Source: an uncultured Methanosarcinales archaeon (GTDB taxonomy: Archaea; Nanobdellota; Nanobdellia; Woesearchaeales; CAZYIM01). From it: a stretch of DNA of 33,481 nucleotides. Made by a program: the position numbers and the translations under genes. Positions 378-21,148 of this stretch are shown here, one piece after another (the first letter of the stretch is position 1; each line of letters starts with the position of its first letter). The stretch is from assembly GCA_964647565.1 (NCBI GenBank), contig CAZYIM010000032.1:1-33481 (forward strand), written 5' to 3'. Under the pieces are notes generated by a model that was given only the letters and a program-made list of their open reading frames with translations, made no database searches and had not been told where the DNA came from.

Positions 378-1294
378 AAAGAAAAGTAGTACAACAAGGC
401 CCGGCCACTCTGATGATCAGCTTACCTGCAAAATGGGTGAAAGAAAACAACATAACCAAAGGAATAGAACTCGAGATAACGCTCGAGAAAAACCTTCTGA
501 CCATAAGGACAGAGGGCAAAAAAATAAAAAAGGTAAAAGAATACGATGTAACAGGATTCTCAACCAACACAATAAGTTCATTGGTATCTGCACCCTACAA
601 GATGGGCTATGATCAGATCACCTTAACCTATAAGAAAGACATTCAAAAAGGCTTTGTCCAGCAGTTCGCTATGGAACACTTCCCCAGCTTTGTGGTCATG
701 GAACAGACCCCCACAAGCTGTAAGATTAGGAGCATATCAGAAGAGATGGCCTCAGAATTCACCCCAACCCTGCGAAGAGCCTATCGTGTAACTCTAGCTA
801 TGGGAGAAAGTCTTGTTGCGATGCTAAGGGAAAAGAACTACAAGGAATTAAAAACAGTGAACTCCCATGAGCTGACCAACAACATATTGACTAATTTCTG
901 CGAGAGGATCATCAACAGGTTTGGCTATGAAGAACCAGAAAAGAACACATTCATGTATGCTCTTGTCTGGAATCTTGAAAAGTTGTGTGATGACTATAAG
1001 TATATCGCGAACTTCATGAACAAGGCAAATCCCAAACAAACTCATCTAAAAAAAGAGGTGATTGACTTTATTGAAGAATGCAACGAACTGCTCAGGGAAT
1101 ACTACCAGATCTTCTTTGATTATGATATTGAAAAGCTCGATGCTAACATGATCAGGATAAAAGCTGCCAAGAAGAAGGTGCTGGATCTCATGAAAGATAA
1201 GAGCTATGAAGAGATCATAATTCTGCATTACCTCTCAGGATTTCTACTAAAACTCTATGACAATAAAGGATGCACAATAGCAGTGTACTCCTAA
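374..1294 (+). CDS. AbrB/MazE-type DNA-binding domain plus PhoU-like helical domain regulator
   Basis: N-terminal RKVVQQGPATLMISLPAKWVKENNITKG is the archaeal AbrB-PhoU signature. C-terminal NFCER...NLEKLCDDY is PhoU-like. RBS GGAGGT at 363-368. Confidence 0.85.
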   Translation: MKRKVVQQGPATLMISLPAKWVKENNITKGIELEITLEKNLLTIRTEGKKIKKVKEYDVTGFSTNTISSLVSAPYKMGYDQITLTYKKDIQKGFVQQFAMEHFPSFVVMEQTPTSCKIRSISEEMASEFTPTLRRAYRVTLAMGESLVAMLREKNYKELKTVNSHELTNNILTNFCERIINRFGYEEPEKNTFMYALVWNLEKLCDDYKYIANFMNKANPKQTHLKKEVIDFIEECNELLREYYQIFFDYDIEKLDANMIRIKAAKKKVLDLMKDKSYEEIIILHYLSGFLLKLYDNKGCTIAVYS

Positions 1295-1317: not shown

Positions 1318-4300
1318 TCATGGAAGGCTATAATCCCTGTTCTTCGAATAGACCTTGAAAAGGGTTTTATACTGGGCGTTCAAAGACGACCTACCCTTCA
1401 CACCTAGAAAATCAGCAATCTCCTCATGAGCAATCCCCTCTTTAAGCAAACGAACCATTCTAAACTCTCTTAGTTTTTTGGCTGTAATATTGCCGTTTTT
1501 ACCATAACACCTTTGATGCCAATGTTGGACAATATAATCATTAGAGACCCGGTCGCAGGCTTTGTTGACTGCACCTATATCCAAGGGCAGCTCTTCACCT
1601 TGCCATTGTGTTGCAATAAGAGGTTTTTTGCTGTTATGCTTCCTAATACCCCTTGAACCAAGATATTCAGACAGATCCGCTGTCAACGCCCCTGATATTT
1701 GAACCTCTCTAGGCAGGATAGTTTCAGAAAGACCAGGCAAGCTGACTTTATTGTTTTCAAAATCAACATCAGCTGGCTTCAACTGTGTTAGTTCACTAGG
1801 TTTACATCCTGTCTCATAAAGCATTCTGACTATAAATTTCTCTTTATCACGATTTGAATTATTAAGCAACATATTAACAATATCTTCCTGAACTTCAGCC
1901 CTCTCTGAGAAAACTTCCCTTAAATATTCGTAATTATAATAAAACACATCTTTAGTTCTTCTTATTCTCTTATCAAACAATAGCCTGTGCTTCTTGACCA
2001 CTTTATGCTTTATCTCGAACATATCCTTCAAGCCCTTAAGCTGGGATTTCAAGGACTTATACTGTTGACCATAATGATATCCCTCAGATGTTACATTATG
2101 ATAATAGGAACCATGCTCATTTTCTATCCTGTCAATGGCCTGCAGGGCATCCTCAACCCACTCTTTCCTCGCAGGCTCCTTGATAGGCCTGGAACAGAGA
2201 CCGCCGTAGAAATCAAGTGCTCTCAAAACCACAGCATTCAAAAACTGCAGATGGAACTTCTTGTAATTAAGCAGGTTAGTATTGTCTCCTGTCGCCTCCA
2301 TATGCCTTCTGTTGTAATCCTGAACATAAAATTTTACAAATTCATCAATGATTCTCCAGTTTTCCTGAGCATCATCAACAAAGTTCTCATAAACTAAAAG
2401 ATTGACAAGATCAAGAACAATAGGTGCATAAGGTCTTCCATCAGTGTCCCAATGGATAACCTCTCCAGCATCTGAAATACAAAAATTATCTGGCTTAGCA
2501 TCCCTACTAAACGCACAGATACAATCATCCAGGCTAGCATACACAGGCATCAGGTTCTTGTTCATACGCGTCAAAAATCCATCCCATTTCATATTCCTAA
2601 GACCCTTTCCAACCTTCTCCATTATCTTGGATTCAAGATGCACAACATTGTTTTCTTCTTTTTCAGGAAGTAAATAGTGGACTTTTACCATCTCCTCGAC
2701 AACCTTCTTCGCGGCACACATATAATTTAGGTCCTTGTCTCTAATATATTTCAAAAGAGATTTGCCTTCGTCAATAAACTCTGTGACCAGAATGTTGTTG
2801 TTCGCCAGATAACTCAGGTGTGCAGGGACATTACAGCCAATCGAAGCAAGCGCATTATAAGACGCCTCTGTGGCCTTAACCTGAGAAGAGCTATCCATCA
2901 TCTTGGTGAAGATCGAGACAATCTTGATTTTAGCGTTGTTATCAAAATTCGGCAATCTTATATCAACCCTGTAAGATCCTCTGTTTTGAGAATCATCAGA
3001 CAGTATAAGAGTCTCTTCTGTTGCCAGGGAATGATAACCGTGCTCCGCTGCAAACTGTCTAATAAGTTTCATGTCCCTTCTTTTGAAATCAATATCCTGG
3101 ACTTTTTTCATGGAAAGAAAGAAATCATCGGTAAGAATGTAATTGTTAAAGAGCTTGTTCCACTTTTTCATGCCTAATCTGCATTTAAGCACCTGTTTTC
3201 TTGTCTGATCCTGGATTGTCCGAAAATTATCCAAGTCTCCAGCTTTCAGCCCCAAAATAGATAATCTGACATTTTTTAGGTATTTCTCACCAAATAACCT
3301 TTCCAGATCCCTGTTATGAAGAAAGTAATTTTCAATAGCATCATTTCGTTCTGAAACAGTATGAGGGGATAAGCATCTGACCCGCTGATCAAGCCGATCC
3401 TGAAAATGCTTTGGAAACGAGCTGAAAAAATCAACCAAAGCTTGTTTATGATACCACTCGCACAGCAAAGGTACCTTATGGTGATGCTTTGTGCTTTTCT
3501 TATAAAAATGGAAAGCTCTTTGAGCTCTTTCAGCATGTGTAAGATGATCCCTATACAGAGGATCAAGCAGCATCTTGCTAACCTCTTTTGCATTTATAGT
3601 TTCATCAAGCTGCCAGGTTTCAGGTACGACTGTACAAGCAATGTCAACTAATTGTTGGAGATAAGTGCTATCGCTTGCCTCAATTAGCTCACCATACTGC
3701 TGATGCTTTTTCAGCTCGTCAGCCACCTTCTTTGTTATCTGTCTCCTTTTCACATCATCTCTACTCATCTTGATTTGCCTAAAAGAAGGTATGTCAGTTG
3801 TCTTGAGCCTCCATTTCATGTCTTTGGCACTCTTGAACCTGAAATCTTTTCTTATCTGATCTTCAAGACCATACTCTGCATCATGCTCATTGACCCAGTC
3901 AACAAAATGCTGGCTCTTGCAAAACCTGTACTTGGCCTGGGAAGCACCCCAGAAAAAACCCATATTGATCATAGAAGGATCTCTGTTAAAACGCATAAGG
4001 TTCTTTCTCTCAAAAAAATGTGAAATCTCAATGATATCCTTAAGGCTCTTACCCTGTCTGAGATAGCTTGAAAACATCTCTTTGATAGCGCGTAGGCCAG
4101 GAGTATCATCTCCATTGATCCACTTGCCAGACCAATTGCTCGCGGGTGCAATGTGGCTAATGAAATGCTGGTTTCCGACGCCCTCATAGAATTTCCTGAC
4201 AACAGGATCAGGATGCTCCTCTAAAAATTTTCGCACAAAGCCTGCGAATTGGCTATCAGAGAAATATTTATTCACAACAGCAAATCTATAATTTCTATTA

Positions 4301-5739
4301 AAGAAATTATTTTCTAATAATTTCGTCCTGAATTTATCAAAAATTGAATCATCATAATCCAGATTCAAGCGATTCCTAAAAACATGATCTAAAACCACAA
4401 AATTCTTCCTGGCTGCAAGGCCGTTTTCTAAAGCAGCCTTGTTAGTCAACATCCCAGTTAAATTCTCTCTTTTAGTCATTTCCATGGATTTCTCAAAATA
4501 AGTGATCAGCAATTCAGGGTTGAAATTATGATCCTGAGCCAGATATTCCTGCTTCAGCGTCTTCATATCCTGACCCTTGAACCTCCATCTGGCCTGGTTA
4601 TGATAAAGAACATATTGAGAGTTACTGCTGGTCATGTAAGAGATAGCCTTTAGTAAGATTTCATCGCTCAACTGCTTGGGTGCCGGCGCCTCAACATATT
4701 CCATCTCACTATCCTTAAGATCGCTCTTAAGATGCTCAACAAGAAGAGCCTCATCCACAAAATGCTTGAATCTTACCTTATCCTTGGCAAGGGAATTCAG
4801 ATTTTCCCTGATTGCTTTAATTACCCTTCTTTCATTCTCTTTTGAACTGTTCTTCAAGTTTCTGTAAACCTGGCTAGCGTTAGCTCCATATTTGATTTCA
4901 AGATCTGTGTCACAAAGCGACCTATATGATCCTGCTACAATCTCATCGACTGACATACCGTTTTTGGCATGAGCCAAAACTACCTCTCTGAAATATTTTT
5001 CACCTAACTCAAGGTCAGGCTTGCCTTTATAAGTGATCCAGTGCTTGAATCTTGGAAAGTGATAGATCTCTAGATCCTTATATCTTGCTCTAACTTCAGG
5101 ATCAACAGAATTCCTAAACAGTTCCTTGAATATCTGGGATGTTGAGTAATAATGAGGATTCATGAGATGCTCTGGGAAATTATCAATGATAGAATCCTTG
5201 AGATTCATGATGGAATCGTAATTGAAGTATTTTGTGTTGAAGAGACCTAGCAAGCTATCGTCATACCCCCCAAATTCTTTCTTGACATACTGATCAAAGA
5301 CTATCTTGGCACGCCTCCACCCTGTAAGGATGCCCATCTGATCATCATTGTCAAAGAAATTATGAGGAAATTTGACCTTATTCTTCACCCTACCTCTTTT
5401 TGCGAGACGATTAGCATACACTTTGTCAAATATACGCAATACCTCTGCTCTTGGTGTTGGCCCGTAGTTTAGGATATCCTTATTATCCCAAGATAATCGA
5501 GAGTATTTCTTTTTTGATTTGGATTCTGCGTCTGCACGGATATTTGCCTGCAAAAGACTGATGGTTGGAGTTGTTGAATGGAATATTCTGGCTATCTCTT
5601 CAGCTGTATAATGTCCAAATAGAACTATAAGATCGTTTTCTGGCAAACTAGGAATGTCTTTGTGTGAGAGACGGTCTGGCTTTAGCTCCCTCTCAAGCAA
5701 CTTCATTTCTAGAGTTGTATCCTCTGTTTTATCAGACAT
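1318..5739 (-). CDS. 1473-aa multidomain protein: HTH-like motif, duplicated central region, APH/protein-kinase-like domain, C-terminal tyrosine recombinase-like domain
   Basis: Long uninterrupted ORF. Kinase motifs IFTK, TE, LVTEFI, RDAKPDN, HWDTD, DLVNLL. Recombinase boxes RMLYETGCKPSELTQL and ITAKKLREFR...IADFLGV...AQY. Confidence 0.8.
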   Translation of the reverse strand: MSDKTEDTTLEMKLLERELKPDRLSHKDIPSLPENDLIVLFGHYTAEEIARIFHSTTPTISLLQANIRADAESKSKKKYSRLSWDNKDILNYGPTPRAEVLRIFDKVYANRLAKRGRVKNKVKFPHNFFDNDDQMGILTGWRRAKIVFDQYVKKEFGGYDDSLLGLFNTKYFNYDSIMNLKDSIIDNFPEHLMNPHYYSTSQIFKELFRNSVDPEVRARYKDLEIYHFPRFKHWITYKGKPDLELGEKYFREVVLAHAKNGMSVDEIVAGSYRSLCDTDLEIKYGANASQVYRNLKNSSKENERRVIKAIRENLNSLAKDKVRFKHFVDEALLVEHLKSDLKDSEMEYVEAPAPKQLSDEILLKAISYMTSSNSQYVLYHNQARWRFKGQDMKTLKQEYLAQDHNFNPELLITYFEKSMEMTKRENLTGMLTNKAALENGLAARKNFVVLDHVFRNRLNLDYDDSIFDKFRTKLLENNFFNRNYRFAVVNKYFSDSQFAGFVRKFLEEHPDPVVRKFYEGVGNQHFISHIAPASNWSGKWINGDDTPGLRAIKEMFSSYLRQGKSLKDIIEISHFFERKNLMRFNRDPSMINMGFFWGASQAKYRFCKSQHFVDWVNEHDAEYGLEDQIRKDFRFKSAKDMKWRLKTTDIPSFRQIKMSRDDVKRRQITKKVADELKKHQQYGELIEASDSTYLQQLVDIACTVVPETWQLDETINAKEVSKMLLDPLYRDHLTHAERAQRAFHFYKKSTKHHHKVPLLCEWYHKQALVDFFSSFPKHFQDRLDQRVRCLSPHTVSERNDAIENYFLHNRDLERLFGEKYLKNVRLSILGLKAGDLDNFRTIQDQTRKQVLKCRLGMKKWNKLFNNYILTDDFFLSMKKVQDIDFKRRDMKLIRQFAAEHGYHSLATEETLILSDDSQNRGSYRVDIRLPNFDNNAKIKIVSIFTKMMDSSSQVKATEASYNALASIGCNVPAHLSYLANNNILVTEFIDEGKSLLKYIRDKDLNYMCAAKKVVEEMVKVHYLLPEKEENNVVHLESKIMEKVGKGLRNMKWDGFLTRMNKNLMPVYASLDDCICAFSRDAKPDNFCISDAGEVIHWDTDGRPYAPIVLDLVNLLVYENFVDDAQENWRIIDEFVKFYVQDYNRRHMEATGDNTNLLNYKKFHLQFLNAVVLRALDFYGGLCSRPIKEPARKEWVEDALQAIDRIENEHGSYYHNVTSEGYHYGQQYKSLKSQLKGLKDMFEIKHKVVKKHRLLFDKRIRRTKDVFYYNYEYLREVFSERAEVQEDIVNMLLNNSNRDKEKFIVRMLYETGCKPSELTQLKPADVDFENNKVSLPGLSETILPREVQISGALTADLSEYLGSRGIRKHNSKKPLIATQWQGEELPLDIGAVNKACDRVSNDYIVQHWHQRCYGKNGNITAKKLREFRMVRLLKEGIAHEEIADFLGVKGRSSLNAQYKTLFKVYSKNRDYSLP

Positions 5740-8013: not shown

Positions 8014-8802
8014 CTATCCTCCTGCACTAGTATATTTCTTCATAGCAGCATTCCAGAGAAGAATGCTCAATAATCCGAAAGCAGCCACAGGCAACGCTAT
8101 CTTGATAAAACCCATAAAACTAAGTCCGTTCAACAAAGCATCTGCAGGAAAAAAAGCAGCAACCGAAATGGGGAACAGGAAGTTCACAAACACCTGGAGT
8201 GGTGCAGAGTACAAAGTAGATGGATACCTGGCAAAATCAGAGAGCTTGAAAAATATATCCATCAGGGCCCAGGACTGGACTACAAGAAACGACAACGAAC
8301 TGATCAGGATCATTGCAAATAGATGGAACAAGAATCCCACAAATACCAACAGCAAATACCAAAGTAGATTTGTATTAAACAACTGCAATTTGACAATTGC
8401 CCAGGTCACCAAAGCAATACCCGTCATTACCTCTCCCAAAGCCTCAAGATCCCAACAACTAGTCAAGACATTGATCAATGGCGGAAACGGCTTGGTCAGG
8501 AACTTGTCAAAATTTCCCTTCCTTACAGCATGGATTACATGCACAGGCAATAAGATGGTCAACATATGGCCCAATCCAAAAACAAGTGCAAACGTACCCT
8601 GGAAAAGTATGAACTCCTCAAAACGCCAGCCCGGAATACCAGACGTGGTGCTGTACAGCAGGATTGTAAAAACAGGACCTATGATATCCACCAAAACCAG
8701 GGCAAAGAACTTGAAAAAGAAATTGACCTTATAGGCCATCTCCCTACTCAACTCAATACCTAAATGCCGGATCCATAGTTCAAAATATCTTAAAAGCTTC
8801 AT
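8014..8802 (-). CDS. ABC-2 family exporter permease (DUF990-like)
   Basis: Multiple TM helices; motifs IPGWRFEE, VRKGNFDKFLTKP, FARYP, YTSAGG. Coupled to the upstream permease by an ATGA overlap. Confidence 0.88.
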   Translation of the reverse strand: MKLLRYFELWIRHLGIELSREMAYKVNFFFKFFALVLVDIIGPVFTILLYSTTSGIPGWRFEEFILFQGTFALVFGLGHMLTILLPVHVIHAVRKGNFDKFLTKPFPPLINVLTSCWDLEALGEVMTGIALVTWAIVKLQLFNTNLLWYLLLVFVGFLFHLFAMILISSLSFLVVQSWALMDIFFKLSDFARYPSTLYSAPLQVFVNFLFPISVAAFFPADALLNGLSFMGFIKIALPVAAFGLLSILLWNAAMKKYTSAGG

Positions 8803-9593
8803 ACGCCAGCACCTGCAAATTTCTTAAATGCCTTTATCCAGATAAAATAGGATAACAGATACAGTACAACCACCCAGACAATGCTGATCAATATCATCAG
8901 CAGGGAATAGTTGATGGTGTAGTTACCCAGATATATGCTGATAGGCACATACCTGACATACTGGAAAGGCAGGTATTTGAAAACAGTCTGGATAGTAAGC
9001 GGAAAAAAGGTCAGTGGGATCATAGAACCACTAAGAAAAGCAAGCGTAACCCTCTTCACCCTCCTCAAACCAGATATCCTCTTAAGCCAAAATGCGCTAA
9101 GACCCACTATATAAGATATCAGGAAATAGATGATAGCTGCAAAAAATACTGATATGACTGCCAGTATCGTGTTCCAAAAAGAAACGTATATCAGGCCGAA
9201 CAAGAAGCCCAAGACCAATACTGGAATAATCTCTATTAGGATGGCCAAGGTATTCAGACCGACATTGAAATACATGTTCCAGCTCATAAAAGACATAGGT
9301 TTAAGCAAAGAAGCCACCATCTCGCCGCTGATAACATTCTCCTCGATCCACTCATCAACATTGGACCAGGTCAGAGAACCAACTATCATACTCATCACAT
9401 AATATGTTATCATCTGCCCCAGGGTAAATCCTCTTATGATCTCTACATCCATATAAGTATATATAGAGCTCCAGAGAAAATAATAGATAAGCAGCGAGAT
9501 GGGCATGGATAACAGGGTTACAAAATAATGGAGCTTGTATGCCAATCCAGTCTTAAATCCCGCCACTCCAACTGCATAGTTGGCTTTAACCAT
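8799..9593 (-). CDS. ABC-2 family exporter permease (DUF990-like)
   Basis: TM helices; motifs GFTLGQMITY, SGEMVASLLKP, FLSGSMIPL..FP, LPFQY. The ATG at 9593 overlaps the end of the ATPase gene. Confidence 0.88.
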   Translation of the reverse strand: MVKANYAVGVAGFKTGLAYKLHYFVTLLSMPISLLIYYFLWSSIYTYMDVEIIRGFTLGQMITYYVMSMIVGSLTWSNVDEWIEENVISGEMVASLLKPMSFMSWNMYFNVGLNTLAILIEIIPVLVLGFLFGLIYVSFWNTILAVISVFFAAIIYFLISYIVGLSAFWLKRISGLRRVKRVTLAFLSGSMIPLTFFPLTIQTVFKYLPFQYVRYVPISIYLGNYTINYSLLMILISIVWVVVLYLLSYFIWIKAFKKFAGAGV

Positions 9594-10566
9594 TCTTGTA
9601 AATCCTCTCAATTATCTCCTCAATTGGAGGATCAAGGATGTTGATATCTGCGACATCATAGTGGGCCAACAGATAATCAATGACTTCCTTGACGGTCTGC
9701 TTACGGGTATCAAGCTCAATCTTCATCTCATAGTCCATAGCTTCCAGCATATTACAGCCAGGCAACTTGAATTTTTGGGCAGGAGACTCTAGCTTGACAT
9801 CTACTATCTTAGAGGTCATATACTTTTTCTTGATCTTGTTCAAGGAGCCATCATATACAATCTCACCTTTATTGATAATGATGATCCGCTTACACAATCT
9901 CTCAATCTCCTGCATGTCGTGAGTTGTTATGATAAATGTGGTTCCATACTTCTCATTGAACTCAATGATAAAATCTCTGAGCCTGTTCTTGGCAATCACA
10001 TCTAGTCCGATACTAGGTTCGTCCAGGAAGACCAGCTTAGGCTTATGCAGAAGAGCTGCCACTAGTTTGCACTTCATACGCTCTCCTAAAGACAGGTCTC
10101 TAACAGGTTTCTTGGAAACCTCCTCGAGGTCAAGATGTCGAACCATCTTTTTCATCCTCTTCTCAAACTCTACTTTAGGAACATCATAGATGTATCTATT
10201 CAGATAAAATGTGTCGGCTGCAGGCAGATCCCACCAAAGCTGCTCTTTTTGGCCAAATACAACACCGATGTTCTTCACATAGTCCACCCTATCCTTCCAA
10301 GGCACAAAGTTCAGGACCTTGACAAGCCCCGAAGTAGGATAAAGCACACCAGACAAAGCCTTTATGGTAGTTGATTTGCCTGCCCCGTTGGGGCCAATAA
10401 AACCAACTATTTCACCTGCTTCTATCTTAAAAGAGATGCCCTTCAAGGCCGGTTTTTTAACTGTGTCTTTCTTGAAGAGGGCTCTGACTGCATTGAACAC
10501 ACCAGATTCTCGCTTTCGTGTGGTATACACCTTCCTCAGGTTCTCTACATCAATAATTGGCTGCAT
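9586..10566 (-). CDS. ABC transporter ATP-binding protein
   Basis: Walker A GPNGAGKST, signature LSLGERMK, Walker B VFLDEP, H-loop TTHD. Confidence 0.95.
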   Translation of the reverse strand: MQPIIDVENLRKVYTTRKRESGVFNAVRALFKKDTVKKPALKGISFKIEAGEIVGFIGPNGAGKSTTIKALSGVLYPTSGLVKVLNFVPWKDRVDYVKNIGVVFGQKEQLWWDLPAADTFYLNRYIYDVPKVEFEKRMKKMVRHLDLEEVSKKPVRDLSLGERMKCKLVAALLHKPKLVFLDEPSIGLDVIAKNRLRDFIIEFNEKYGTTFIITTHDMQEIERLCKRIIIINKGEIVYDGSLNKIKKKYMTSKIVDVKLESPAQKFKLPGCNMLEAMDYEMKIELDTRKQTVKEVIDYLLAHYDVADINILDPPIEEIIERIYKNG

Positions 10567-11978: not shown

Positions 11979-14123
11979 CTATCTAACTTTACCATTCTTG
12001 ACATCACGCATGACTCGGATCTTCTCTGAGCCAGCCTTTAATTCTTTATCACCAGAAACAACAGCACCATCTTTTAACTCGAGCTTGACTCTGAAGAACT
12101 CATCAATAGTAATCTGATCTGACTTAGGCTTGACACCCTCCATAGTTGCAGAATCTCCTGGTTTGGCCTCTTCAACAAACAACAAACCAACTTGCTTGCC
12201 GTCATCAGCAGCAAGCAGCATGCCATTGGAATCCTGACCCCTTAATTTGGCAGGTTCAAGATTAGAGACCACAATGATCTTTTTACCCAACAACTCATCC
12301 TTTGTATAATGCTTTCGAAGTCCAGCGACAATCTGGGAAGGTCTTCCAATATCAATCTTCATTATATATAGCTTATCAGCCTCAGGATGATCCTTGACCT
12401 CTTTTATCTCAGCAACCCTAAGATTCAGGATTTCAAAAGGTAATTCAAGCTTGTTTTCCTCAACCTTTTTTTTGCCTGCAAACCTCTGCTTAAACTCTAT
12501 AACCTGCTTGTCTTCAAGCTTTTGGAACAATATCTCTGGCTGGCCTATCTTATGACCTTGTTTCAATAAATCTTTGCCAAGATTTTCCCATTTTAGGAAC
12601 TTTTTATCCAGTTTTAGCTGGTCGAAAATTTTATCAGCAGTCGCAGGCAGGAAAGGCTGTGCCAAGATAGCTAAATCCTTTGCAAAGTTGGCCAATACAG
12701 CCAAAGCATTGCCCGCTTTTTCAGGATTGTCCTTGACATGCTTCCAAGGCTCTTGTTCTTGGAAATACTGATTGCCTGATTTGGCAACACCCATGATCTG
12801 CTTTAATGCTTTTTTCAGCTGTATGTTTTCATAGGATTCATGGATCTTATCATATTCCTCCTTTAAAGAAAGACTGTTCTCCTTTAATTTAGGAATCTTA
12901 GAATCATAAAACTTAGACAGGAAAACAACAGTCCTGTTGATCAGGTTGCCCAGGTTACCAACTAATTCTGTGTTGAGCTTTTCCTGGAAATCACCCCAGG
13001 TGAAGACTGTATCTGCCTTTTCTGGCCTATTGATCATAATATAATATCTCCAGACATCTGCAGGGATGCCGGATTCCTTGGCATCATCACCAAAAACACC
13101 CTCACCTCTTGACTTGGAGAACTTGCCAGATTCATAGTTCATATACTCGTTCACATCGATCGAGTCCATCAAAGTATAGTCATCCTTAGCTCCAATTAAA
13201 AAAGACGGAAAAAGTATAGTGTGAAAGGGTATGTTATCCTTACCCATGAACTGGACCAGTTTGGTTTTTTTGGAAGAGTGCCACCAATCATGCCAGTCTT
13301 TCTTGTTCTCTGCAGTGATACCGATATAACCGATCGGAGCATCAAACCACGAGTAGAACACCTTATTAGGAAAATCTGGAACAGGAATACCCCATTTCAA
13401 GTCTCGGGTTATGCATCTTGGCTTCAGACCCTCCTTAAGCCAGGCATTAGTCATGGTCCTTGCATTCTCAGACCAGGTCTTCTCTTTCTTCCACATCCAT
13501 AGTTCAAGATCAGGCCTTAGCTTGGGCAGATCAATGAATAGGTGCTCTGTCTCTCTTATCTCAGGAGAAGCACCGCAGACCTTACATCTTACCTCAATCA
13601 GCTCTTCTGGGTTGAGCAGCTTGCCGCATTTCTCACATTGGTCGCCACGAGCATTTTCATAGTTACAATGAGGACAAGTCCCTTCAACAAACCTGTCTGC
13701 AAGGAATTTCTCGCACTTGATGCAGAAGACCTGCTCCACAATATCCTTTATTATATAGCCATTGGCCTTGAGCTTGAGAAAGATATCCTTGGTGATCTTA
13801 TGATTCTCCATGGACGATGATCTTCCTAAACAGTCATAGTCATTGTTGAACCAGAGATAGATATCCTTATGGATCGCGAAATACTTGTCAACACACTCCT
13901 GAGGTGTAATACCTTCTTCAAGGGCCTTGGTTTCAGTTGTTGTACCGTGCTCATCAGTTCCAAGCACTGAAATCACATTTTTACCTAAGAGACGCAAGAA
14001 TCTTGTATATACATCTGCTGAAATCACACATACTAAATTACCTAGGTGAGGCACATTATTCACATATGGCAATGCACTCGTAACTAAGACACGTTCAAAT
14101 TCCTGTGCTTTTTTGTTATCCAT
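11979..14123 (-). CDS. metG: Methionine--tRNA ligase with C-terminal tRNA-binding OB domain
   Basis: ALPYVNNVPHLGN (HIGH), GTDEHG, CxxC zinc knuckles, WFDAPIGY, GKDNIPFH, KFSKS, C-terminal HPEADKL...NLEPAKLRG..SNGMLLAA. Start placed at ATG 14123 by TATA spacing. Confidence 0.97.
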   Translation of the reverse strand: MDNKKAQEFERVLVTSALPYVNNVPHLGNLVCVISADVYTRFLRLLGKNVISVLGTDEHGTTTETKALEEGITPQECVDKYFAIHKDIYLWFNNDYDCLGRSSSMENHKITKDIFLKLKANGYIIKDIVEQVFCIKCEKFLADRFVEGTCPHCNYENARGDQCEKCGKLLNPEELIEVRCKVCGASPEIRETEHLFIDLPKLRPDLELWMWKKEKTWSENARTMTNAWLKEGLKPRCITRDLKWGIPVPDFPNKVFYSWFDAPIGYIGITAENKKDWHDWWHSSKKTKLVQFMGKDNIPFHTILFPSFLIGAKDDYTLMDSIDVNEYMNYESGKFSKSRGEGVFGDDAKESGIPADVWRYYIMINRPEKADTVFTWGDFQEKLNTELVGNLGNLINRTVVFLSKFYDSKIPKLKENSLSLKEEYDKIHESYENIQLKKALKQIMGVAKSGNQYFQEQEPWKHVKDNPEKAGNALAVLANFAKDLAILAQPFLPATADKIFDQLKLDKKFLKWENLGKDLLKQGHKIGQPEILFQKLEDKQVIEFKQRFAGKKKVEENKLELPFEILNLRVAEIKEVKDHPEADKLYIMKIDIGRPSQIVAGLRKHYTKDELLGKKIIVVSNLEPAKLRGQDSNGMLLAADDGKQVGLLFVEEAKPGDSATMEGVKPKSDQITIDEFFRVKLELKDGAVVSGDKELKAGSEKIRVMRDVKNGKVR

Positions 14124-14200
14124 ACTAGTCAAAGACTGATTTTATGTATATAAATGTTGTTGTTGGATAAACATAGTTGATGATATTTAATCACATATCG

Positions 14201-14293
14201 AAAAAATAGCAGCAGCAATGGCATGCAAACCAGTTTTCTTGTCAGAAAACTTCGGGAGGAGACCTCCCGTTTGCGCCAGTACTGCTATTTTTT
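14201..14293. repeat. Multi-hairpin intergenic element / possible terminator of the glycine-zipper operon
   Basis: Outer stem AAAAAATAGCAG/CTGCTATTTTTT, then TGGC/GCCA and GCAAAC/GTTTGC. Inner hairpins AGTTTTCT-tgtc-AGAAAACT and CGGGAGG-aga-CCTCCCG. Confidence 0.7.
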
Positions 14294-14304
14294 GTGCAAT
14301 AAAA

Positions 14305-14673
14305 TTAAAACTTGCCAACAACCCAGCCGCCAGCGTATCCTATTGCCTGGCCAATAAAAGATCCTATTCCTGTTGTGGCAGCCACCTTTGTGCCGACCAC
14401 CACAGGAACAAAGGCTCCAAGCTCTCTGTCACCTTTAGCAGCATAATATGCAAACTGTCCTGCGTAAGGTAAGGCTGAAGCCCCGGCTGCAGCAGCAGGC
14501 CCAACTGAGACAAGCGGACCTATGCTCGGAGGCGTAGGATTTCCATTTCCATGACAAAAACCATTGTAGGCGCCAAGACCTACTGATGCCAGGATGCTGG
14601 CACCTGCTGTTGCAATACCGAGAACATGAGGTACGATGTCCATTGATTTGTCGATTATGTTTCCTAGTCCCAT
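14305..14673 (-). CDS. Glycine-zipper small membrane protein (paralog 5)
   Basis: Gly/Ala-rich and hydrophobic; GAYNGFCHGNGNP and C-terminal GQAIGYAGGWVVGKF. RBS AGGTGA overlaps the upstream stop. Confidence 0.75.
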   Translation of the reverse strand: MGLGNIIDKSMDIVPHVLGIATAGASILASVGLGAYNGFCHGNGNPTPPSIGPLVSVGPAAAAGASALPYAGQFAYYAAKGDRELGAFVPVVVGTKVAATTGIGSFIGQAIGYAGGWVVGKF

Positions 14674-14682
14674 CTCGATCAC

Positions 14683-15006
14683 CTAGATATATTTACCAAG
14701 TACAGATCCTGTAATCTGTCCTGCAATCTGCATAACAAGGCTTCCGATCCCACAAACTCCTACCCCACTCGCCATTGCATGGAATTCGCTCGGAAACATG
14801 TCGGTTCCGGGATCTTCACCATTCATCGTCAATAATCCTGCAATCGAACCATAAAATCCGCCTGCGATCGGATATCCGAATGAGGTTCCAAGATCAACTG
14901 CAGTTGATATCGGATTTCCTTGTGATTGGTTGTATCCTTTCCAAAAGCCTAATGCTCCTGCACCAAGGACAATAGGCGCGTATGCTAGTGTTCTTTTCCA
15001 GTTCAT
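14683..15006 (-). CDS. Glycine-zipper small membrane protein (paralog 4)
   Basis: LGFWKGYNQSQGNP...AGQITGSVLGKYI. RBS AGGTGA overlaps the upstream stop; ATG at 15006. Confidence 0.8.
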   Translation of the reverse strand: MNWKRTLAYAPIVLGAGALGFWKGYNQSQGNPISTAVDLGTSFGYPIAGGFYGSIAGLLTMNGEDPGTDMFPSEFHAMASGVGVCGIGSLVMQIAGQITGSVLGKYI

Positions 15007-15015
15007 TCTGATCAC

Positions 15016-15342
15016 CTATATGTACTTACCAAGCACTGAACCAGTCAAGTATCCTGCGCCTTGTGCAACTAAGCCAACCACTCCGCCAGCCGCGGCACCA
15101 AATAATCCGCCAATTCCACTCATAATACCTGCTGCTGCAAAAGAGTTAGCCCCTTCCATTCCATCTCTTGCACCAATATCTGCACCAACTAAGCCTCCTG
15201 CAATTGGTGTTCCATAAGTTATCAAAGCATCAATTCCTGCAGGCAATGGATGACCATCTGCTGCCGCATTTCCTTTCCAATATCCAAGTGCAAACGCACC
15301 AATCGTACCAACTGTTGCCGCTATTACTGATTTGTATCCCAT
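15016..15342 (-). CDS. Glycine-zipper small membrane protein (paralog 3)
   Basis: MGYK..IAAT.GT.GAF.LGY.KGNAAA.G.PLP.GIDA.ITYGTP...AGYLTGSVLGKYI; RBS AGGAGGT. Confidence 0.85.
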   Translation of the reverse strand: MGYKSVIAATVGTIGAFALGYWKGNAAADGHPLPAGIDALITYGTPIAGGLVGADIGARDGMEGANSFAAAGIMSGIGGLFGAAAGGVVGLVAQGAGYLTGSVLGKYI

Positions 15343-15404
15343 TTTTTTACCTCCTAAGTTTTTTTACGAAGGGTGCCAGAAATTAGTTGTAATTTCTCAG
15401 CATC

Positions 15405-15725
15405 CTAGATGTATTTACCAAGGACAGAACCAGTAAGGTGTCCAAGACCTTGTGCGACCAAACCAACAGTCCCGCCAATTGCGGCTCCAAATCCGCCATC
15501 TATCATGGCCAACAATCCACCTGCAATTCCACCTTCAGAAGCTCCATGTTCAGCACCTATAAGAAAACCACTAATAGTACCTATAACAGGCGTTCCATAG
15601 GTGATTGCGGCATCAATTCCACCTGGCAACGGATTTCCATTTGCCGCCGCATTTCCTTTGTAATATCCTAGTCCAAATGCTCCAACAGTTCCTAATGTTG
15701 CAGCTATCGTAGTTTTATATCCCAT
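15405..15725 (-). CDS. Glycine-zipper small membrane protein (paralog 2)
   Basis: Closely similar to paralog 3 at both termini; RBS GGAGGT before the ATG at 15725. Confidence 0.85.
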   Translation of the reverse strand: MGYKTTIAATLGTVGAFGLGYYKGNAAANGNPLPGGIDAAITYGTPVIGTISGFLIGAEHGASEGGIAGGLLAMIDGGFGAAIGGTVGLVAQGLGHLTGSVLGKYI

Positions 15726-15742
15726 TTTTTTACCTCCGAGTT

Positions 15743-16123
15743 TTATATGCACGCTCCAAGCAATTTTCCTGCTTGATAACCAGTAAATGAAAGTACACCG
15801 TTTGCAATCTTACCAACTGTAAACTTACGAGAAGTTGTCTTTCTGTATCCTGAATTCATTTGAGGAAACACACGACGAGTGACTGCGGTGTAAGCCATCC
15901 CAGGCATTCTTTTCAGATGATCATTCATATTGTAATCAAGCCCAACACCCTTAGAATGACAGACGCCTCTAACTCCGTTTGTTACTGCAGATCCTAAATA
16001 CATACCGAGAACAGTAGGCAGGTAAAGTGCCTTGATTGCAGAACTCCCTATTTTCTGAAATAAAGACGATTTGTGTGTGTCTGTTTTTGTTTTTTCATCC
16101 AATGATTGTTTTTTATCGCTCAT
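15743..16123 (-). CDS. Divergent glycine-zipper family protein (paralog 1)
   Basis: NGVRGVCHSKG aligns with NGFCHGNG of paralog 5. C-terminal TGYQAGKLLGACI aligns with GYLTGSVLGKYI. RBS GGAGG. Confidence 0.7.
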   Translation of the reverse strand: MSDKKQSLDEKTKTDTHKSSLFQKIGSSAIKALYLPTVLGMYLGSAVTNGVRGVCHSKGVGLDYNMNDHLKRMPGMAYTAVTRRVFPQMNSGYRKTTSRKFTVGKIANGVLSFTGYQAGKLLGACI

Positions 16124-16285
16124 TTTTGCCTCCTATAAGCAAAAGATGCATCAAGGCACCTTTGCCGCTTGTCTAGAAGTAGGTAGGGGGCAAGAATCAT
16201 ATATATTTGATTATTATATTATTCGTACACATATACATATATAAATATAGAAAAATTTATATATACAACAAGCAAATTAAATATT

Positions 16286-17191
16286 ATGAGAAGGAAAGTC
16301 GTAAAGCAAGGACCCTCAACATTGATGATCTCACTACCGTCTGCATGGGTCAAAACATATGAGATAACCAAAGGCAGCGATCTGGAGGTAGAAGAACAAG
16401 AGAAAAGACTTCTGATATCAACTGAAAGATCTGTCCAGAAAGAACAACTGGAGGTAGATATCGCCGAATTATATCCAATGAATATGGCAACTGTAAAGGC
16501 ATTATACAAGGCAGGTTACGATAATCTCAAGATAACATTCTCAGACTCAAAAAAAATACTAGACATTCAAAACGCTCCGCGAGAAGAGATCACCGGATTC
16601 GAAATCACAGAGCAAGGTTCAAACTATTGCATCGTGCACAAGATTGAAGAAGGAGTAATGGAAGGTTTTGAACCCATCCTAAGAAGGACTTTCTTGCTGC
16701 TCCTGACCATGGCAGAGAAATCAATAATCTCAGTCAAGGAAAAAGATCTTGACGAATTAAAACAGCTCGCTATGCTTGAGACCAGCAACAACAGGTTTAC
16801 CACATACTGCCTTCGACAACTGTCAAAAACAGGTTACAAGAAACCGAACAAACTACAGTTCATCTATATGGTTGTCGATAAACTTGAGAAAATCGCCAAT
16901 GAATACAAACTATTGCTGGAATACCTGGCAGACAATCAGAAGAAAGACTTATCTGAAGAGACCTATGAATATTATGAAAAAGTAAGTCAGATGATGAGGA
17001 CTGTGTATAATATCTTTTATGATTATGACAAGAAGCATCTTGTTAAATTAGGTAAACTAAAAGAAGAACTAAACGAAAACGCAAACAAAAGACTCGAGAA
17101 TACAGGAGATGTAATCAGCATGCATCATTTAATGACCTTGGGAGGACAGATATTTGAGCTTGCCGAACCATGCATTTGCATCCACTTCTGA
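16286..17191 (+). CDS. AbrB/MazE-type plus PhoU-like regulator (paralog of 374-1294)
   Basis: RKVVKQGPSTLMISLPSAWVK, YKAGYD, TYCLR, KLEKIANEY. Leaderless start after GAAAAATTTATATATA. Confidence 0.85.
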   Translation: MRRKVVKQGPSTLMISLPSAWVKTYEITKGSDLEVEEQEKRLLISTERSVQKEQLEVDIAELYPMNMATVKALYKAGYDNLKITFSDSKKILDIQNAPREEITGFEITEQGSNYCIVHKIEEGVMEGFEPILRRTFLLLLTMAEKSIISVKEKDLDELKQLAMLETSNNRFTTYCLRQLSKTGYKKPNKLQFIYMVVDKLEKIANEYKLLLEYLADNQKKDLSEETYEYYEKVSQMMRTVYNIFYDYDKKHLVKLGKLKEELNENANKRLENTGDVISMHHLMTLGGQIFELAEPCICIHF

Positions 17192-19020: not shown

Positions 19021-20556
19021 ATGCAATCTGCTGCAAAAAGACTCATCGGGGCTGGCTTCATTAATAAGAAATATAAAGGATTGTATCGTGATATGTCTGA
19101 TAAAGAGAAAAAAAATCACATCAAACACCTATCAGATTCTCAAGCTAAGAAAGAAGCCGACGGCGAATATGTTGAAGTCGAGAACAACCAATGGGATTAC
19201 ACAGGGTATCCGCCTACAGTTAAAAAATATAGAATGATCTATGAGTCCATGCAGGCAAATATGGAAGAGAGTTATTTCTGGATCAAGGAACATATCAAGC
19301 AGGATCAAGGCTTTCATTATTTCACTAAGATTGTTGATATATTCTCAGCAACAGAGAGCAGCTCATTCTGGGGTGTGATGAACCAACGGCTCATGCAACT
19401 CCAGGATAAGGTAGGACAATTTATGGGAACCATAGCTAATATGGTAAAGACTCTATTCCAAATTGTCAGGGAGATAAGGGTCATTGACGAAAGGCTTGCC
19501 GCCTATCACTCATGGAAAGAGAGCAAAGCAGCCGACCTCACTCTAAAGGGTCTATTCATAGATCAGGTTGAAGGTGCAAGCAAGAATCCAACATCTGTTT
19601 ATGGACTTGCCCAGACAGTAGGTTTCACAATACTACCAGACTTATTCTTTAACACACAAGCATATTCCCAAGAAGAGATCGAGGAAAAGGTTGAAGCAAT
19701 GGATTATAATATTGCTGTCAAGAATATCCTGAAAAGAAAACTGTTTCAATATGTAACCTGGAAACTACGGACTGAAGAAGAGCTTGAGAACAGGAGATCT
19801 TTTACAATAAAATACCTGCGGCAGCACTGGGATACAATCAAGATGTATATGTCCTGGATCAAACCACACATCAAGTCTATAAAAAGAATGCAGATGAACC
19901 AGAATCAGATTGACAGCGCAGATATGATCAGCGGATTTGAGACTGGCGTCATTGAAATTGAATTCCTTGCAAAGCAGCAAGCAATCAAAGGTGTCTGTCC
20001 TGTTATTGTCGCATCTTTCTTCTATAGGACAGTACCCAAAATGGACTCTCAGAAAGAGTGGCAAAGAGGAGCTATTCACATTGGCAGGATTGAATTCAAT
20101 TTAAGAGCATACACATGGACAGAGAAACAAATAGCTGCCTATATCAAGATGCGAGATGAAGAAGACCTTGAACTCCTGGGCTTTATTGACGGCTCAGTTG
20201 AGGCAGCTATGGAAGCACTGGGAGACGACCTAAAGAGGTATCTTAAGGAAGCTGGAGGAGAGGACCTAGACAGATTCAAAAGTAAAGATGAAGTTAAAAA
20301 GAGAAAAAAGCGCTCTATAGGTCTGGGTGCTCTCGAACCATTTGTGGCTATTTTCAAGGGAATATTTGAGATTGCGGATGCCCTAATTCCTATCTCTGCA
20401 ATTGCAGGTAGTGCTTCTGATGCAGCGAAGAGAAGGAAGAAGTCTTCTGGTAGCCCGCCTGCAAGCGCATACAAAAGCGCTAAGAAAGCTGTTACTTTCC
20501 ACATGTATCAAGCTTATAAGAATTATAAGAAAGCACATAAGATGCTTTCATGGTAA
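19021..20556 (+). CDS. Hypothetical protein (helical/coiled-coil rich, 511 aa)
   Basis: Long ORF; first gene of a tightly coupled three-gene run. Confidence 0.8.
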   Translation: MQSAAKRLIGAGFINKKYKGLYRDMSDKEKKNHIKHLSDSQAKKEADGEYVEVENNQWDYTGYPPTVKKYRMIYESMQANMEESYFWIKEHIKQDQGFHYFTKIVDIFSATESSSFWGVMNQRLMQLQDKVGQFMGTIANMVKTLFQIVREIRVIDERLAAYHSWKESKAADLTLKGLFIDQVEGASKNPTSVYGLAQTVGFTILPDLFFNTQAYSQEEIEEKVEAMDYNIAVKNILKRKLFQYVTWKLRTEEELENRRSFTIKYLRQHWDTIKMYMSWIKPHIKSIKRMQMNQNQIDSADMISGFETGVIEIEFLAKQQAIKGVCPVIVASFFYRTVPKMDSQKEWQRGAIHIGRIEFNLRAYTWTEKQIAAYIKMRDEEDLELLGFIDGSVEAAMEALGDDLKRYLKEAGGEDLDRFKSKDEVKKRKKRSIGLGALEPFVAIFKGIFEIADALIPISAIAGSASDAAKRRKKSSGSPPASAYKSAKKAVTFHMYQAYKNYKKAHKMLSW

Positions 20557-20557
20557 A

Positions 20558-21148
20558 ATGGCTGATGATATAGAGGAAGAGATCAAGAACCTTCCCCCTG
20601 CAGAAAGGATAAAGAAACTAAAAGAGATAGAAGAGAAAAGAAAAAAGGAACTGAAGGAACTTGAGATTAAGAGGACAGAGGACGTTAAAAAAGCTGAGGA
20701 AATAATCAAGGCTAGCATCGAAGAGATTACAAAAAATGAGGAAGCCAGATTTATACGTCAAGAAACCCTGAGAAGAGAGCTTGATGAAGAAAGAGAACAA
20801 CTGGAGCTTGAAGACACTCTGGATAAAGAGAAACCACGAGAACAACCCCTTCCTACTAACATCGAATATAATCCATTTGATGAACTTCAACATGGTCATG
20901 TCAGCATCTATAACATTGCAAATGAAAATGTCTATGGAAAACTTAAAAGTATGACGGAAAGGTTAGCCAGCGGTCAATGGACAGAAGCTGACTCCCAATT
21001 GGTTGAACAAGTTAAAGAGCAAATAGACAATCTTCAGGGTAAAAGGGATGATGACTATTTCAATGAGAAAGATCCCAACTGCTACTTAAAAAGAACCGAA
21101 GAGATAATCAAGAATCTTGACATATACAGGAGGATGAAGAACCTATGA
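20558..21148 (+). CDS. Charged coiled-coil hypothetical protein
   Basis: ATG 1 nt after the upstream stop (MADDIEEE...); E/K-rich; ATGA overlap with the next gene. Confidence 0.75.
   Translation: MADDIEEEIKNLPPAERIKKLKEIEEKRKKELKELEIKRTEDVKKAEEIIKASIEEITKNEEARFIRQETLRRELDEEREQLELEDTLDKEKPREQPLPTNIEYNPFDELQHGHVSIYNIANENVYGKLKSMTERLASGQWTEADSQLVEQVKEQIDNLQGKRDDDYFNEKDPNCYLKRTEEIIKNLDIYRRMKNL

What the first reader, a model, noticed from the sequence alone, without database searches (positions are those of the whole stretch)
14305..16123. Operon of five paralogous glycine-zipper membrane microproteins
Seen: five tandem 106-126 aa Gly/Ala-rich ORFs share a design of hydrophobic helix, a G-x-x-x-G-x-x-x-x-x-G motif (usually followed by x-P), variable middle, and a GxxxGxxxG C-terminal helix. 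Three end in the identical TGSVLGKYI. All have strong RBSs (GGAGG(T), or AGGTGA overlapping the previous stop). Paralogs 2 and 3 are close and 1 and 5 are divergent, consistent with repeated duplication and diversification. The operon is divergent from an AbrB-PhoU regulator and ends at a structured element. Established: glycine zippers drive membrane-helix oligomerisation in pore-forming peptides and multi-peptide bacteriocins. Inference: a hetero-oligomeric pore or channel, or a multi-peptide archaeocin, possibly used by an ectosymbiont to reach host cytoplasm under nutrient limitation.
Basis: partly seen in the sequence, partly recalled or inferred. Interest (0 to 1): 0.8.

Follow-up and report, generated by a model that had tools for sequence, protein, structure and literature searches.

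The report
Tandem glycine-zipper small proteins, Woesearchaeal family
A DPANN archaeon carries a tight row of five small genes, at least four of them copies of an unnamed glycine-rich three-helix protein family that is probably membrane-embedded, and nothing found here shows it to be a pore toxin or a secreted antimicrobial peptide.

Summary
The observation mostly holds. Five co-directional ORFs (106-126 aa, minus strand, 14305-16123) lie 9-62 nt apart, each behind a Shine-Dalgarno-like site. gz2-gz5 are demonstrable paralogs. gz1 is polar, not Gly/Ala-rich, and only a marginal member.

No Pfam, NCBIfam, PHROGs or PADLOC model reaches significance. The genes belong to an unnamed family found in 45 of 401 sampled genomes of the phylum, all hits in the window's order or class. 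Source names on relatives are Woesearchaeota/Nanobdellota. Most genomes hold one copy, with no conserved neighbour.

The family has an N-terminal GxYxGYxxAxG motif, a YGP motif, a variable Gly-rich middle and a C-terminal (ET)xxGYxxG helix. AlphaFold gives a three-helix bundle (pLDDT 83) with no significant structural match.

GxxxGxxxG periodicity exceeds all 2000 shuffles. Polar content (12-17%) matches membrane proteins of the same contig, but Kyte-Doolittle hydropathy is only borderline.

Best reading: a cell-autonomous small membrane glycine-zipper protein, locally amplified here. The pore, archaeocin and host-access ideas have no support: no leader peptide and no adjacent export, processing or recognisable immunity genes. 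Oligomerisation and expression could not be tested.

The parts
15743..16123 (-). gz1: 126-aa polar, basic first gene of the cassette; a marginal, very divergent family member with a ~20-residue polar N-terminal extension
   Evidence: ORF and the GGAGG site at 16129-16133. HMM of 29 relatives from other genomes: E 0.024, rank 6 of 24,968 ORFs. hhalign against the family: 55% probability, E 1.2e-4 over residues 44-84. AlphaFold with the family alignment: three helices H18-57, H64-85, H91-125, pLDDT 80, though the alignment biases this. No credible ortholog in 400 other genomes of the order.
15405..15725 (-). gz2: 106-aa glycine-zipper paralog (26% Gly), ends in TGSVLGKYI
   Evidence: 65% identical to gz3. 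HMM of other-genome relatives: E 1.4e-4 genome-wide. The same 106-aa protein is on record in the public protein set (P0002).
15016..15342 (-). gz3: 108-aa glycine-zipper paralog (24% Gly, 19% Ala), ends in TGSVLGKYI
   Evidence: HMM of other-genome relatives: E 4.7e-6. AlphaFold three-helix bundle H3-28, H35-64, H68-107, pLDDT 83, pTM 0.69.
14683..15006 (-). gz4: 107-aa paralog, ends in TGSVLGKYI; its AGGTGAT site overlaps the gz3 stop codon
   Evidence: HMM of other-genome relatives: E 3.8e-5.
14305..14673 (-). gz5: 122-aa paralog, the copy closest to the wider family (keeps GFCHGNG); its AGGTGAT site overlaps the gz4 stop codon
   Evidence: Found by an HMM of gz2-4 at E 3.8e-4 and by the HMM of other-genome relatives at E 9.1e-12.
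16124..16285 (.). AT-rich 162-bp divergent intergenic region shared by gz1 and the AbrB-type regulator gene; presumed to hold the promoters
   Evidence: Sequence read; TATA-like runs seen by eye. No promoter test was available for archaea.
14201..14293 (-). Structured element just after the gz5 stop: a long stem enclosing two hairpins, followed by a U-run; likely the cassette's transcript end
   Evidence: RNA fold of 14133-14310: -49.8 kcal/mol, z -5.72, 0 of 200 shuffles as good. No Rfam match at E<=1. No second copy in the genome by blastn.
16286..17191 (+). Divergent neighbour: 301-aa AbrB/SpoVT-domain protein with a sub-threshold PhoU-like part; any regulatory link to the cassette is unproven
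   Evidence: PF04014 E 1e-6, 29 bits (cut-off 24.7). PF01895 PhoU 17.4 bits (cut-off 23.5). No AbrB or PhoU neighbour among the 56 flanking ORFs scanned at 27 relatives' loci.

Best explanation
The cassette encodes co-expressed copies of an unnamed small-protein family (about 100-160 aa). In everything I searched, the family is confined to the window's own order and sister orders of its class (Woesearchaeota/Nanobdellota, DPANN).

Each protein is predicted as an antiparallel three-helix bundle. The helices are built from Gly/Ala with i, i+4, i+8 glycine spacing. I think they sit in the cytoplasmic membrane, pack helix against helix through the small-residue faces, and act within the cell that makes them. 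Possible roles of that sort are a small self-associating membrane module, a stress or stabilising protein, or a small channel. I do not think they are a secreted weapon.

In most genomes one copy suffices. Here the gene was duplicated repeatedly. gz3, gz4 and gz5 are spaced for translational coupling, so the paralogs are probably made together and may mix into hetero-oligomers.

Shown: gene reality, paralogy of gz2-5, family range, glycine periodicity, purifying selection, predicted fold, lack of a conserved neighbourhood.

Inferred: membrane location, oligomerisation, physiological role.
For: - Paralogy and family membership. In the tree, gz2-5 form one clade with three sequences from other sources, support 96/96.
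- Range: 28 of 401 genomes of the order with profile A3. 45 of 401 of the phylum sample with profile A4: the window's own genome, 34 in the same order and 10 in the same class. One of the 45 is the unpublished G501.
- Copy number: mostly 1 match per genome. G271 has 6, and the own genome has gz2-5 plus one on contig C50, plus gz1.
- Fold: three helices, pLDDT 83, pTM 0.69.
- Glycine zipper beyond composition: GxxxGxxxG 17 observed against 4.3 expected in gz2-5, and 73 against 14.5 in 29 relatives; 0 of 2000 shuffles reach either.
- Polar residues: 12-17% and charged 7-8% in gz2-5. Three membrane proteins of the same window have 14-18% and 10-11%. Six soluble proteins have 37-42% and 28-31%.
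- Uncharged runs: 27-67 residues in gz2-5.
- Structural neighbours, all within noise, are mostly transmembrane helix bundles.
- Selection: dN/dS about 0.19 for gz2/gz3. The identical 9-residue tail is written with different codons.
- Context: no leader peptide; neighbours of relatives are varied housekeeping genes.
Against: - Kyte-Doolittle 19-residue maxima are only 1.3-1.8 for the five proteins and 0.9-1.9 across 29 relatives. That overlaps the soluble controls (1.0-1.8) and lies far below the membrane controls (2.7-2.9). Membrane insertion is therefore not shown.
- Some relatives, such as the ~155-aa subfamily, have 25-31% polar residues and a long charged insert.
- No dedicated transmembrane predictor was available.
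- The family was found in only 7-11% of sampled genomes, so it is not a core function.
- No structural or sequence match gives a function.
- The gz1 model rests on an alignment with the family and is not independent.
Confidence: 0.5

Rival explanations
1. One reading: the paralogs assemble into a hetero-oligomeric pore, or are exported as a multi-peptide archaeocin that permeabilises another cell (a competitor or the host).
For: - Tandem small paralogs with glycine-zipper helices resemble multi-peptide bacteriocin loci. That resemblance is recalled, not tested.
- Tight spacing suggests stoichiometric co-expression.
- An ABC ATPase with two ABC-2 permeases lies on the same strand at 8014-10566.
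- Weak, non-significant Foldseek rows include alpha-pore-forming toxin chains (6grj, 7a0g, E about 5).
Against: - No leader or signal sequence; the conserved helix starts at residue 3-5.
- At 106-126 aa they are larger than class II peptides, whose size I recall rather than looked up.
- The ABC system is 3.7 kb away, beyond MetRS and two other ORFs, and has no peptidase domain.
- No bacteriocin, holin or defence model matches.
- Relatives are single genes beside PTH2, methyltransferases, Kae1, FtsZ, HSP20 and others.
- The family is conserved across an order or class under purifying selection.
Confidence: 0.12
2. They are small accessory or anchoring subunits that dock onto a larger, still unidentified membrane complex, and do not self-assemble. 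The array would then supply alternative subunits.
For: - Conserved motifs sit at helix ends (GxYxGYxxAxG, YGP, GYxxG) and not along a pore-like face.
- Structural neighbours within noise include small subunits of large membrane complexes, such as PsaL, complex I and IV subunits, EMC and TIM22.
Against: - No conserved neighbour was found among the 56 flanking ORFs scanned at 27 loci.
- Patchy occurrence, 45 of 401 genomes, argues against a universal complex.
- All structural matches are below meaningful scores.
Confidence: 0.2
3. They are not membrane proteins. They would be soluble or surface-associated Gly/Ala-rich helical bundles, or self-associating low-complexity proteins.
For: - Hydropathy maxima overlap those of soluble controls.
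- Predicted helices of 26-40 residues are longer than a bilayer needs.
- Some relatives are 25-31% polar with long charged inserts.
Against: - gz2-gz5 have only 7-9 charged residues each and uncharged runs of 27-67 residues.
- The helices have no polar face by inspection.
- Their polar content equals that of polytopic membrane proteins of the same contig.
Confidence: 0.13

Closest known systems
Pfam glycine-zipper families (PF13441 Gly-zipper_YMGG, PF13488 Gly-zipper_Omp, PF05433 Rick_17kDa_Anti / SlyB-PCP type)
   Same: - Short proteins whose helices carry GxxxGxxxG runs.
- 2-3 of 42 family members give sub-threshold matches (best E 0.0011-0.11).
- Foldseek lists a partial SlyB match: 7ojf_A, 51 columns, rmsd 3.1, E 7.0, not significant.
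- Works alike in the sense of small-residue helix packing.
   Different: - None of the five window proteins matches these models at E<=1.
- Those families are, as I recall, bacterial outer-membrane lipoproteins with a signal peptide and a two-helix hairpin.
- These are archaeal, have no signal peptide, and have three helices with their own terminal motifs.
GlsB/YeaQ/YmgE small stress membrane proteins (PF04226; description recalled, not from a call)
   Same: - About 80-110 aa with three Gly-rich hydrophobic helices.
- Stand-alone genes of unknown molecular role.
- 2 of the 27 relatives' loci have an HSP20 gene next door, which is only a faint stress hint.
   Different: - No match of the five proteins at E<=1.
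- PF04226 is not among the 25 of 28 families listed for the 42 relatives.
- Different motifs; bacterial.
Two-peptide / multi-peptide class II bacteriocins (description recalled)
   Same: Adjacent small genes, GxxxG-type helix-helix motifs, and presumed equimolar production.
   Different: - No double-glycine leader.
- At 106-126 aa they are much longer than the tens of residues I recall for class II peptides.
- No C39-peptidase ABC exporter or immunity gene is adjacent.
- Orthologs are single-copy in housekeeping contexts.
Tim17/Tim22/Tim23 family (PF02466)
   Same: Gly-rich transmembrane helices. It appears as a structural neighbour twice: 7cgp_A at Z 6.6, rmsd 4.3, 70 aligned, and an Atlas row at TM 0.50.
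   Different: Four helices, eukaryotic, no sequence match. Both scores lie in the range the tools call common for helical bundles.

Membership tests
Unnamed Woesearchaeota/Nanobdellota three-helix glycine-zipper family (defined here from 29 relatives in other genomes) | Significant match to a profile built only from members of other genomes | tested here: met
   Among 24,968 ORFs of the genome, gz5 scores E 9.1e-12, gz3 4.7e-6, gz4 3.8e-5 and gz2 1.4e-4. Caveat: the 29 relatives were first collected with a profile that included the window's proteins.
Unnamed Woesearchaeota/Nanobdellota three-helix glycine-zipper family | The same profile match, for gz1 | tested here: inconclusive
   E 0.024, rank 6 of 24,968. 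hhalign 55% probability. Not found by the A4 profile at E<=0.001. gz1 does keep G-V-C-H-S-K-G and a C-terminal GYxxG.
Unnamed Woesearchaeota/Nanobdellota three-helix glycine-zipper family | Motifs GxYxGYxxAxG, YGP and C-terminal GYxxG, in a three-helix layout | tested here: met
   Nearly invariant glycines G20, G24, G30, G97 and G101 (gz3 numbering) in 42 sequences. Three helices in the gz3 model. gz2-4 have lost the common Cys, and all five have lost the common Glu of the ET motif.
Pfam glycine-zipper families (PF13441, PF13488, PF05433, PF13436) | Score at or above the Pfam gathering threshold | tested here: not met
   0 of the 5 window proteins match at E<=1. 2-3 of 42 relatives match only below threshold.
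Class II multi-peptide bacteriocin / archaeocin locus | N-terminal leader (double-glycine or Sec) removed on export | tested here: not met
   By inspection, the conserved first helix begins at residue 3-5 of gz2-gz4 and no leader-like extension is present. No signal-peptide predictor was available.
Class II multi-peptide bacteriocin / archaeocin locus | Adjacent dedicated exporter/peptidase and immunity gene | tested here: not met
   The flanks are MetRS and an AbrB-type regulator. The nearest ABC system (8014-10566) has no peptidase domain. An immunity gene with no known family cannot be excluded.
Class II multi-peptide bacteriocin / archaeocin locus | Antimicrobial or membrane-permeabilising activity | not testable with these tools
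   Needs bench assays.
GlsB/YeaQ/YmgE (PF04226) | Match to the Pfam model | tested here: not met
   No match at E<=1 for the five proteins. Not among the 25 of 28 families listed for the 42 relatives at E<=5.
Phage holins / PHROGs and defence-system proteins / PADLOC | Match to a library model shared by family members | tested here: not met
   Only gz5 matches phrog_4076 (unknown function, E 6.3e-4), and that is 1 of 42 members. PADLOC gave 0 of 7. tblastn against 50,697 phage records found no match.

The most novel reading that the evidence does not exclude
The family is a Woesearchaeota-specific modular membrane pore or membrane-remodelling unit built from glycine-zipper three-helix subunits. 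This unusually large-genome member has amplified it into a co-translated set of four to six different subunits. They would form mixed rings with altered conductance or target specificity, possibly at the contact site with another cell.
Probability: 0.1. Interest if true: 0.7.

Novelty: new variant of a known kind. Interest (0 to 1): 0.35.

Why it matters
DPANN genomes hold many lineage-restricted small proteins that nobody can place. This work turns one anonymous cluster into a defined family. It now has a profile, diagnostic motifs, a confident predicted fold, a taxonomic range and two examples of local amplification (this genome and G271).

That makes the family testable by membrane fractionation, oligomer state and conductance assays. 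If it proved to be a channel or a contact-site component, it would bear on how these small-celled archaea manage their membranes or exchange material.

Tried and rejected
- **Oligomer prediction.** Four copies of gz3 with alignment A4: verdict 'no answer', score 0.00, controls not run. This is no evidence either way.
- **Expression.** No RNA holder was listed. The 8 runs listed are all DNA (marine or seawater metagenomes, 2 studies). Laid contigs of 4 runs only confirm the sequence and bridge the gz5/gz4, gz4/gz3, gz3/gz2 and gz2/gz1 junctions with 0 differences. They may come from the source samples, so they are not independent.
- **Single-sequence searches.**
  - The word-indexed search with gz3 found only gz3 itself and gz2.
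  - phmmer against 1.84 billion representatives gave 5 hits at E<=0.001: two own paralogs, P0004, P0006 and an unrelated 1285-aa repeat protein.
- **Locus fetching for P0004.**
  - Nothing was found in genome contigs.
  - The one metagenome locus (L009) is a false positive: a 475-aa ORF on a GC-rich contig that shares one short word.
- **Structure searches with the gz3 model.**
  - Foldseek against PDB and BFVD gave nothing at E<=0.001.
  - VIA-align wide gave a best Z of 8.2 (VIT1, rmsd 2.5, 89 aligned), inside the range the tool calls common for helical bundles.
- **PDB profile search.** Best E 0.17.
- **ESM Atlas.** Scores of 0.76-0.81 by features and TM 0.42-0.58 by structure; leads only.
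- **Phage link.** phrog_4076 matches 1 of 42 members. There was no tblastn hit in phages and no viral contig.
- **gz1 orthologs.** Nothing credible in 400 other genomes of the order; the best hits contain stop codons or have E>0.001.
- **Rfam.** No match for the structured element at E<=1.
- **Literature.** 'Woesearchaeota' + 'glycine zipper' and 'DPANN' + 'glycine zipper' each returned 0 papers. A broader search listed 10 of 355 papers, none on this family judging by title and abstract. The passages of PMC9258230 that I read do not mention it.
Full report
**What is there**

On the minus strand between MetRS (11979-14132) and a divergently transcribed AbrB-type regulator gene (16286-17191) lie five ORFs:

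| Gene | Coordinates | Length |
|---|---|---|
| gz1 | 15743-16123 | 126 aa |
| gz2 | 15405-15725 | 106 aa from the ATG |
| gz3 | 15016-15342 | 108 aa |
| gz4 | 14683-15006 | 107 aa from the ATG |
| gz5 | 14305-14673 | 122 aa from the ATG |

- The spacers are 17, 62, 9 and 9 nt.
- GGAGG(T) precedes gz1-gz3. AGGTGAT overlaps the preceding stop codon before gz4 and gz5.
- gz2, gz3 and gz4 end in the same nine residues, TGSVLGKYI. The three copies write this tail with 4-7 synonymous differences (read). The identity is therefore kept by selection on the protein, not by recent gene conversion.
- The 172-nt spacer after gz5 folds into a long stem enclosing two hairpins at 14201-14293: -49.8 kcal/mol, z -5.7, 0 of 200 shuffles as good. 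It has no Rfam match and no second copy in the genome.
- Contigs from four public DNA runs bridge every gene junction with no differences. They may come from the source samples, so they are not independent support.

**Are they paralogs?**

- gz2/gz3 are 65% identical. gz4 is 35-38% identical to them, and gz5 24-29%.
- An HMM of gz2-4 finds gz5 at E 3.8e-4 among 24,968 stop-to-stop ORFs of the genome. The next hit is at E 1.7, and gz1 is not found.
- A profile built only from 29 relatives in other genomes gives, genome-wide:

| Rank | ORF | E-value |
|---|---|---|
| 1 | gz5 | 9.1e-12 |
| 2 | gz3 | 4.7e-6 |
| 3 | gz4 | 3.8e-5 |
| 4 | gz2 | 1.4e-4 |
| 5 | ORF on contig C50 | 0.015 |
| 6 | gz1 | 0.024 |

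- hhalign of gz1 against the 42-sequence family alignment gives 55% probability (E 1.2e-4) over 41 columns that cover the signature motif.
- gz1 differs in make-up: 11% Gly, 20% charged residues, GRAVY -0.28.
- So four copies are certain. The fifth is a plausible but very divergent member.
- gz2/gz3 show dN 0.27 and dS 1.43, which indicates old duplicates under purifying selection.

**The family**

- None of the five proteins reaches a curated threshold in Pfam or NCBIfam. PADLOC gives nothing. PHROGs gives only a lone gz5 match to phrog_4076, a family of unknown function, at E 6.3e-4.
- An exhaustive phmmer of gz3 against 1.84 billion representatives found only its own paralogs, two ~105-aa proteins (P0004, P0006) and one unrelated repeat protein.
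- Iterating with profiles over whole genomes opened the family up:
  - 10 of 401 genomes of the order with profile A2.
  - 28 of 401 with profile A3.
  - 45 of 401 in a phylum-wide sample with profile A4, which excludes gz1. These are the window's own genome, 34 in the same order and 10 in other orders of the same class. The count includes one unpublished genome, G501.
- A profile search of the protein collection returned 31 proteins. All named ones are 'hypothetical protein'. The source organism names are Candidatus Woesearchaeota archaeon and Nanobdellota archaeon.
- These are samples, so I can say 'not found elsewhere in what was searched', not 'absent elsewhere'.
- Shared features:
  - a hydrophobic first helix ending in GxYxGY(C)xAxG;
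  - a short loop and a YGP motif;
  - a variable middle, either a Gly run or, in a ~155-aa subfamily, a ~50-residue charged insert;
  - a last helix with (E-T)xxGYxxGYxxG.
- gz2-4 have lost the frequent Cys, and all five have lost the frequent Glu.
- In a maximum-likelihood tree, gz2-5 form one clade with P0004, P0006 and one other genome's copy (support 96/96). gz1 and the C50 copy sit elsewhere on long branches.

**Copy number and context**

- Most genomes have one match. G271 has six, four of them on one contig interleaved with ORFs that have no Pfam match. The window's genome has gz2-5, the C50 copy and gz1.
- I called 104 flanking ORFs at 27 relatives' loci and scanned the 56 nearest ones. 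28 had no Pfam match.
- The rest are a mixed bag: PTH2, TRAM, methyltransferases, glutamate dehydrogenase, Kae1, PolX, HPr, a GT2 glycosyltransferase and thioredoxin-reductase-like proteins. HSP20, FtsZ and Lrp/AsnC regulators each occur at two loci.
- None is an AbrB or PhoU protein.
- There is therefore no conserved partner, exporter, protease or regulator.

**Structure and physical character**

- AlphaFold2 with the 42-sequence alignment predicts gz3 as three antiparallel helices: 3-28, 35-64 and 68-107. Mean pLDDT is 83 and pTM 0.69, and the five models range from 65 to 83.
- gz1, folded with the same family alignment, gives the same layout after a disordered N-terminal 17 residues (pLDDT 80). 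This is not independent of the alignment.
- No structural match is significant:
  - Foldseek against PDB and BFVD gives nothing at E<=0.001.
  - VIA-align gives a best Z of 8.2, within the stated background for helical bundles.
  - Atlas neighbours have TM scores of 0.42-0.58.
- The neighbours are nevertheless mostly transmembrane helix bundles.
- Glycine spacing peaks at i+4 and i+8: 34 pairs each, against 10-24 at other spacings. GxxxGxxxG occurs 17 times in gz2-5 against 4.3 expected, and 73 against 14.5 in 29 relatives. 0 of 2000 shuffles reach either value.
- Composition compared with proteins of the same window:

| Set | Polar residues | Charged residues | Kyte-Doolittle 19-residue maximum |
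|---|---|---|---|
| gz2-gz5 | 12-17% | 7-8% | 1.5-1.8 |
| Membrane proteins (3 for composition, 5 for hydropathy) | 14-18% | 10-11% | 2.7-2.9 |
| Six soluble proteins | 37-42% | 28-31% | 1.0-1.8 |

- Hydropathy is therefore only borderline, because Gly and Ala stand where Leu and Ile usually do.
- Membrane embedding is the best inference, but it is not shown.

**Interpretation**

- I read the family as a lineage-specific small membrane protein whose three helices pack through glycine-zipper faces, acting in the cell that makes it.
- I read the cassette as a local amplification whose tightly coupled products probably co-assemble.
- It works like known glycine-zipper membrane proteins, but it is not a member of any named family. 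The Pfam Gly-zipper models are hit only below threshold, by 2-3 of 42 relatives.
Against it stand:
  - the missing leader peptide;
  - the missing export and immunity genes;
  - the single-copy relatives in housekeeping surroundings;
  - the order- and class-wide conservation.
- The link to nutrient limitation rests only on a neighbouring AbrB-type gene. Its PhoU part is below threshold, and the adjacency is not seen at the other loci.

**What stays open**

- Oligomerisation: the one complex prediction gave no verdict.
- Expression: no RNA run was listed.
- True membrane topology.
- Any phenotype.
- I found no paper on this family in three full-text searches. Those searches do not cover subscription-only literature.

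Noticed in passing
window 14201-14293 (minus strand): A roughly 93-nt three-way structured element between gz5 and MetRS: -49.8 kcal/mol for the 178-nt spacer, z -5.7, followed by a U-run. It is unique in the genome and has no Rfam family. It could be a terminator, a MetRS leader or a small RNA.
   Followed up: partly
G000 contig C50, 13827-14204 (locus L021:1279-1845, minus strand): A sixth, longer (188 aa) and divergent member of the same family elsewhere in the genome, next to a thymidylate-kinase-like ORF. E 1.0e-5 with profile A4 and 0.015 with the HMM of other-genome relatives.
   Followed up: partly
whole genome G000: The assembly is 2.68 Mb in 86 contigs at 86.9% completeness and 1.85% contamination. 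The order-level relatives listed are 0.6-2.1 Mb. This is unusually large for this DPANN order, if it is not a mixed bin.
   Followed up: no
window 1318-5739 (minus strand): A 1473-aa ORF whose only Pfam match is a C-terminal phage-integrase domain (residues 1285-1457, E 4e-8). That makes it a giant tyrosine-recombinase-domain protein with about 1280 unassigned residues.
   Followed up: no
window 374-1294 (+) and 16286-17191 (+): Two AbrB/SpoVT-domain proteins of about 300 aa in one 33-kb window. Only the second lies next to the cassette.
   Followed up: no
G271 contig C28 (loci L012, L019): A second local expansion of the family. Four members (100, 112, 112 and 127 aa) lie on one contig, interleaved with 189-, 227- and 326-aa ORFs that have no Pfam match. 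This may be a different gene island built around the same family.
   Followed up: partly
window 19021-21148 (+): Two adjacent ORFs of 511 and 248 aa with no Pfam match at E<=0.001, upstream of a 654-aa protein that has a xylose-isomerase-like TIM-barrel domain.
   Followed up: no
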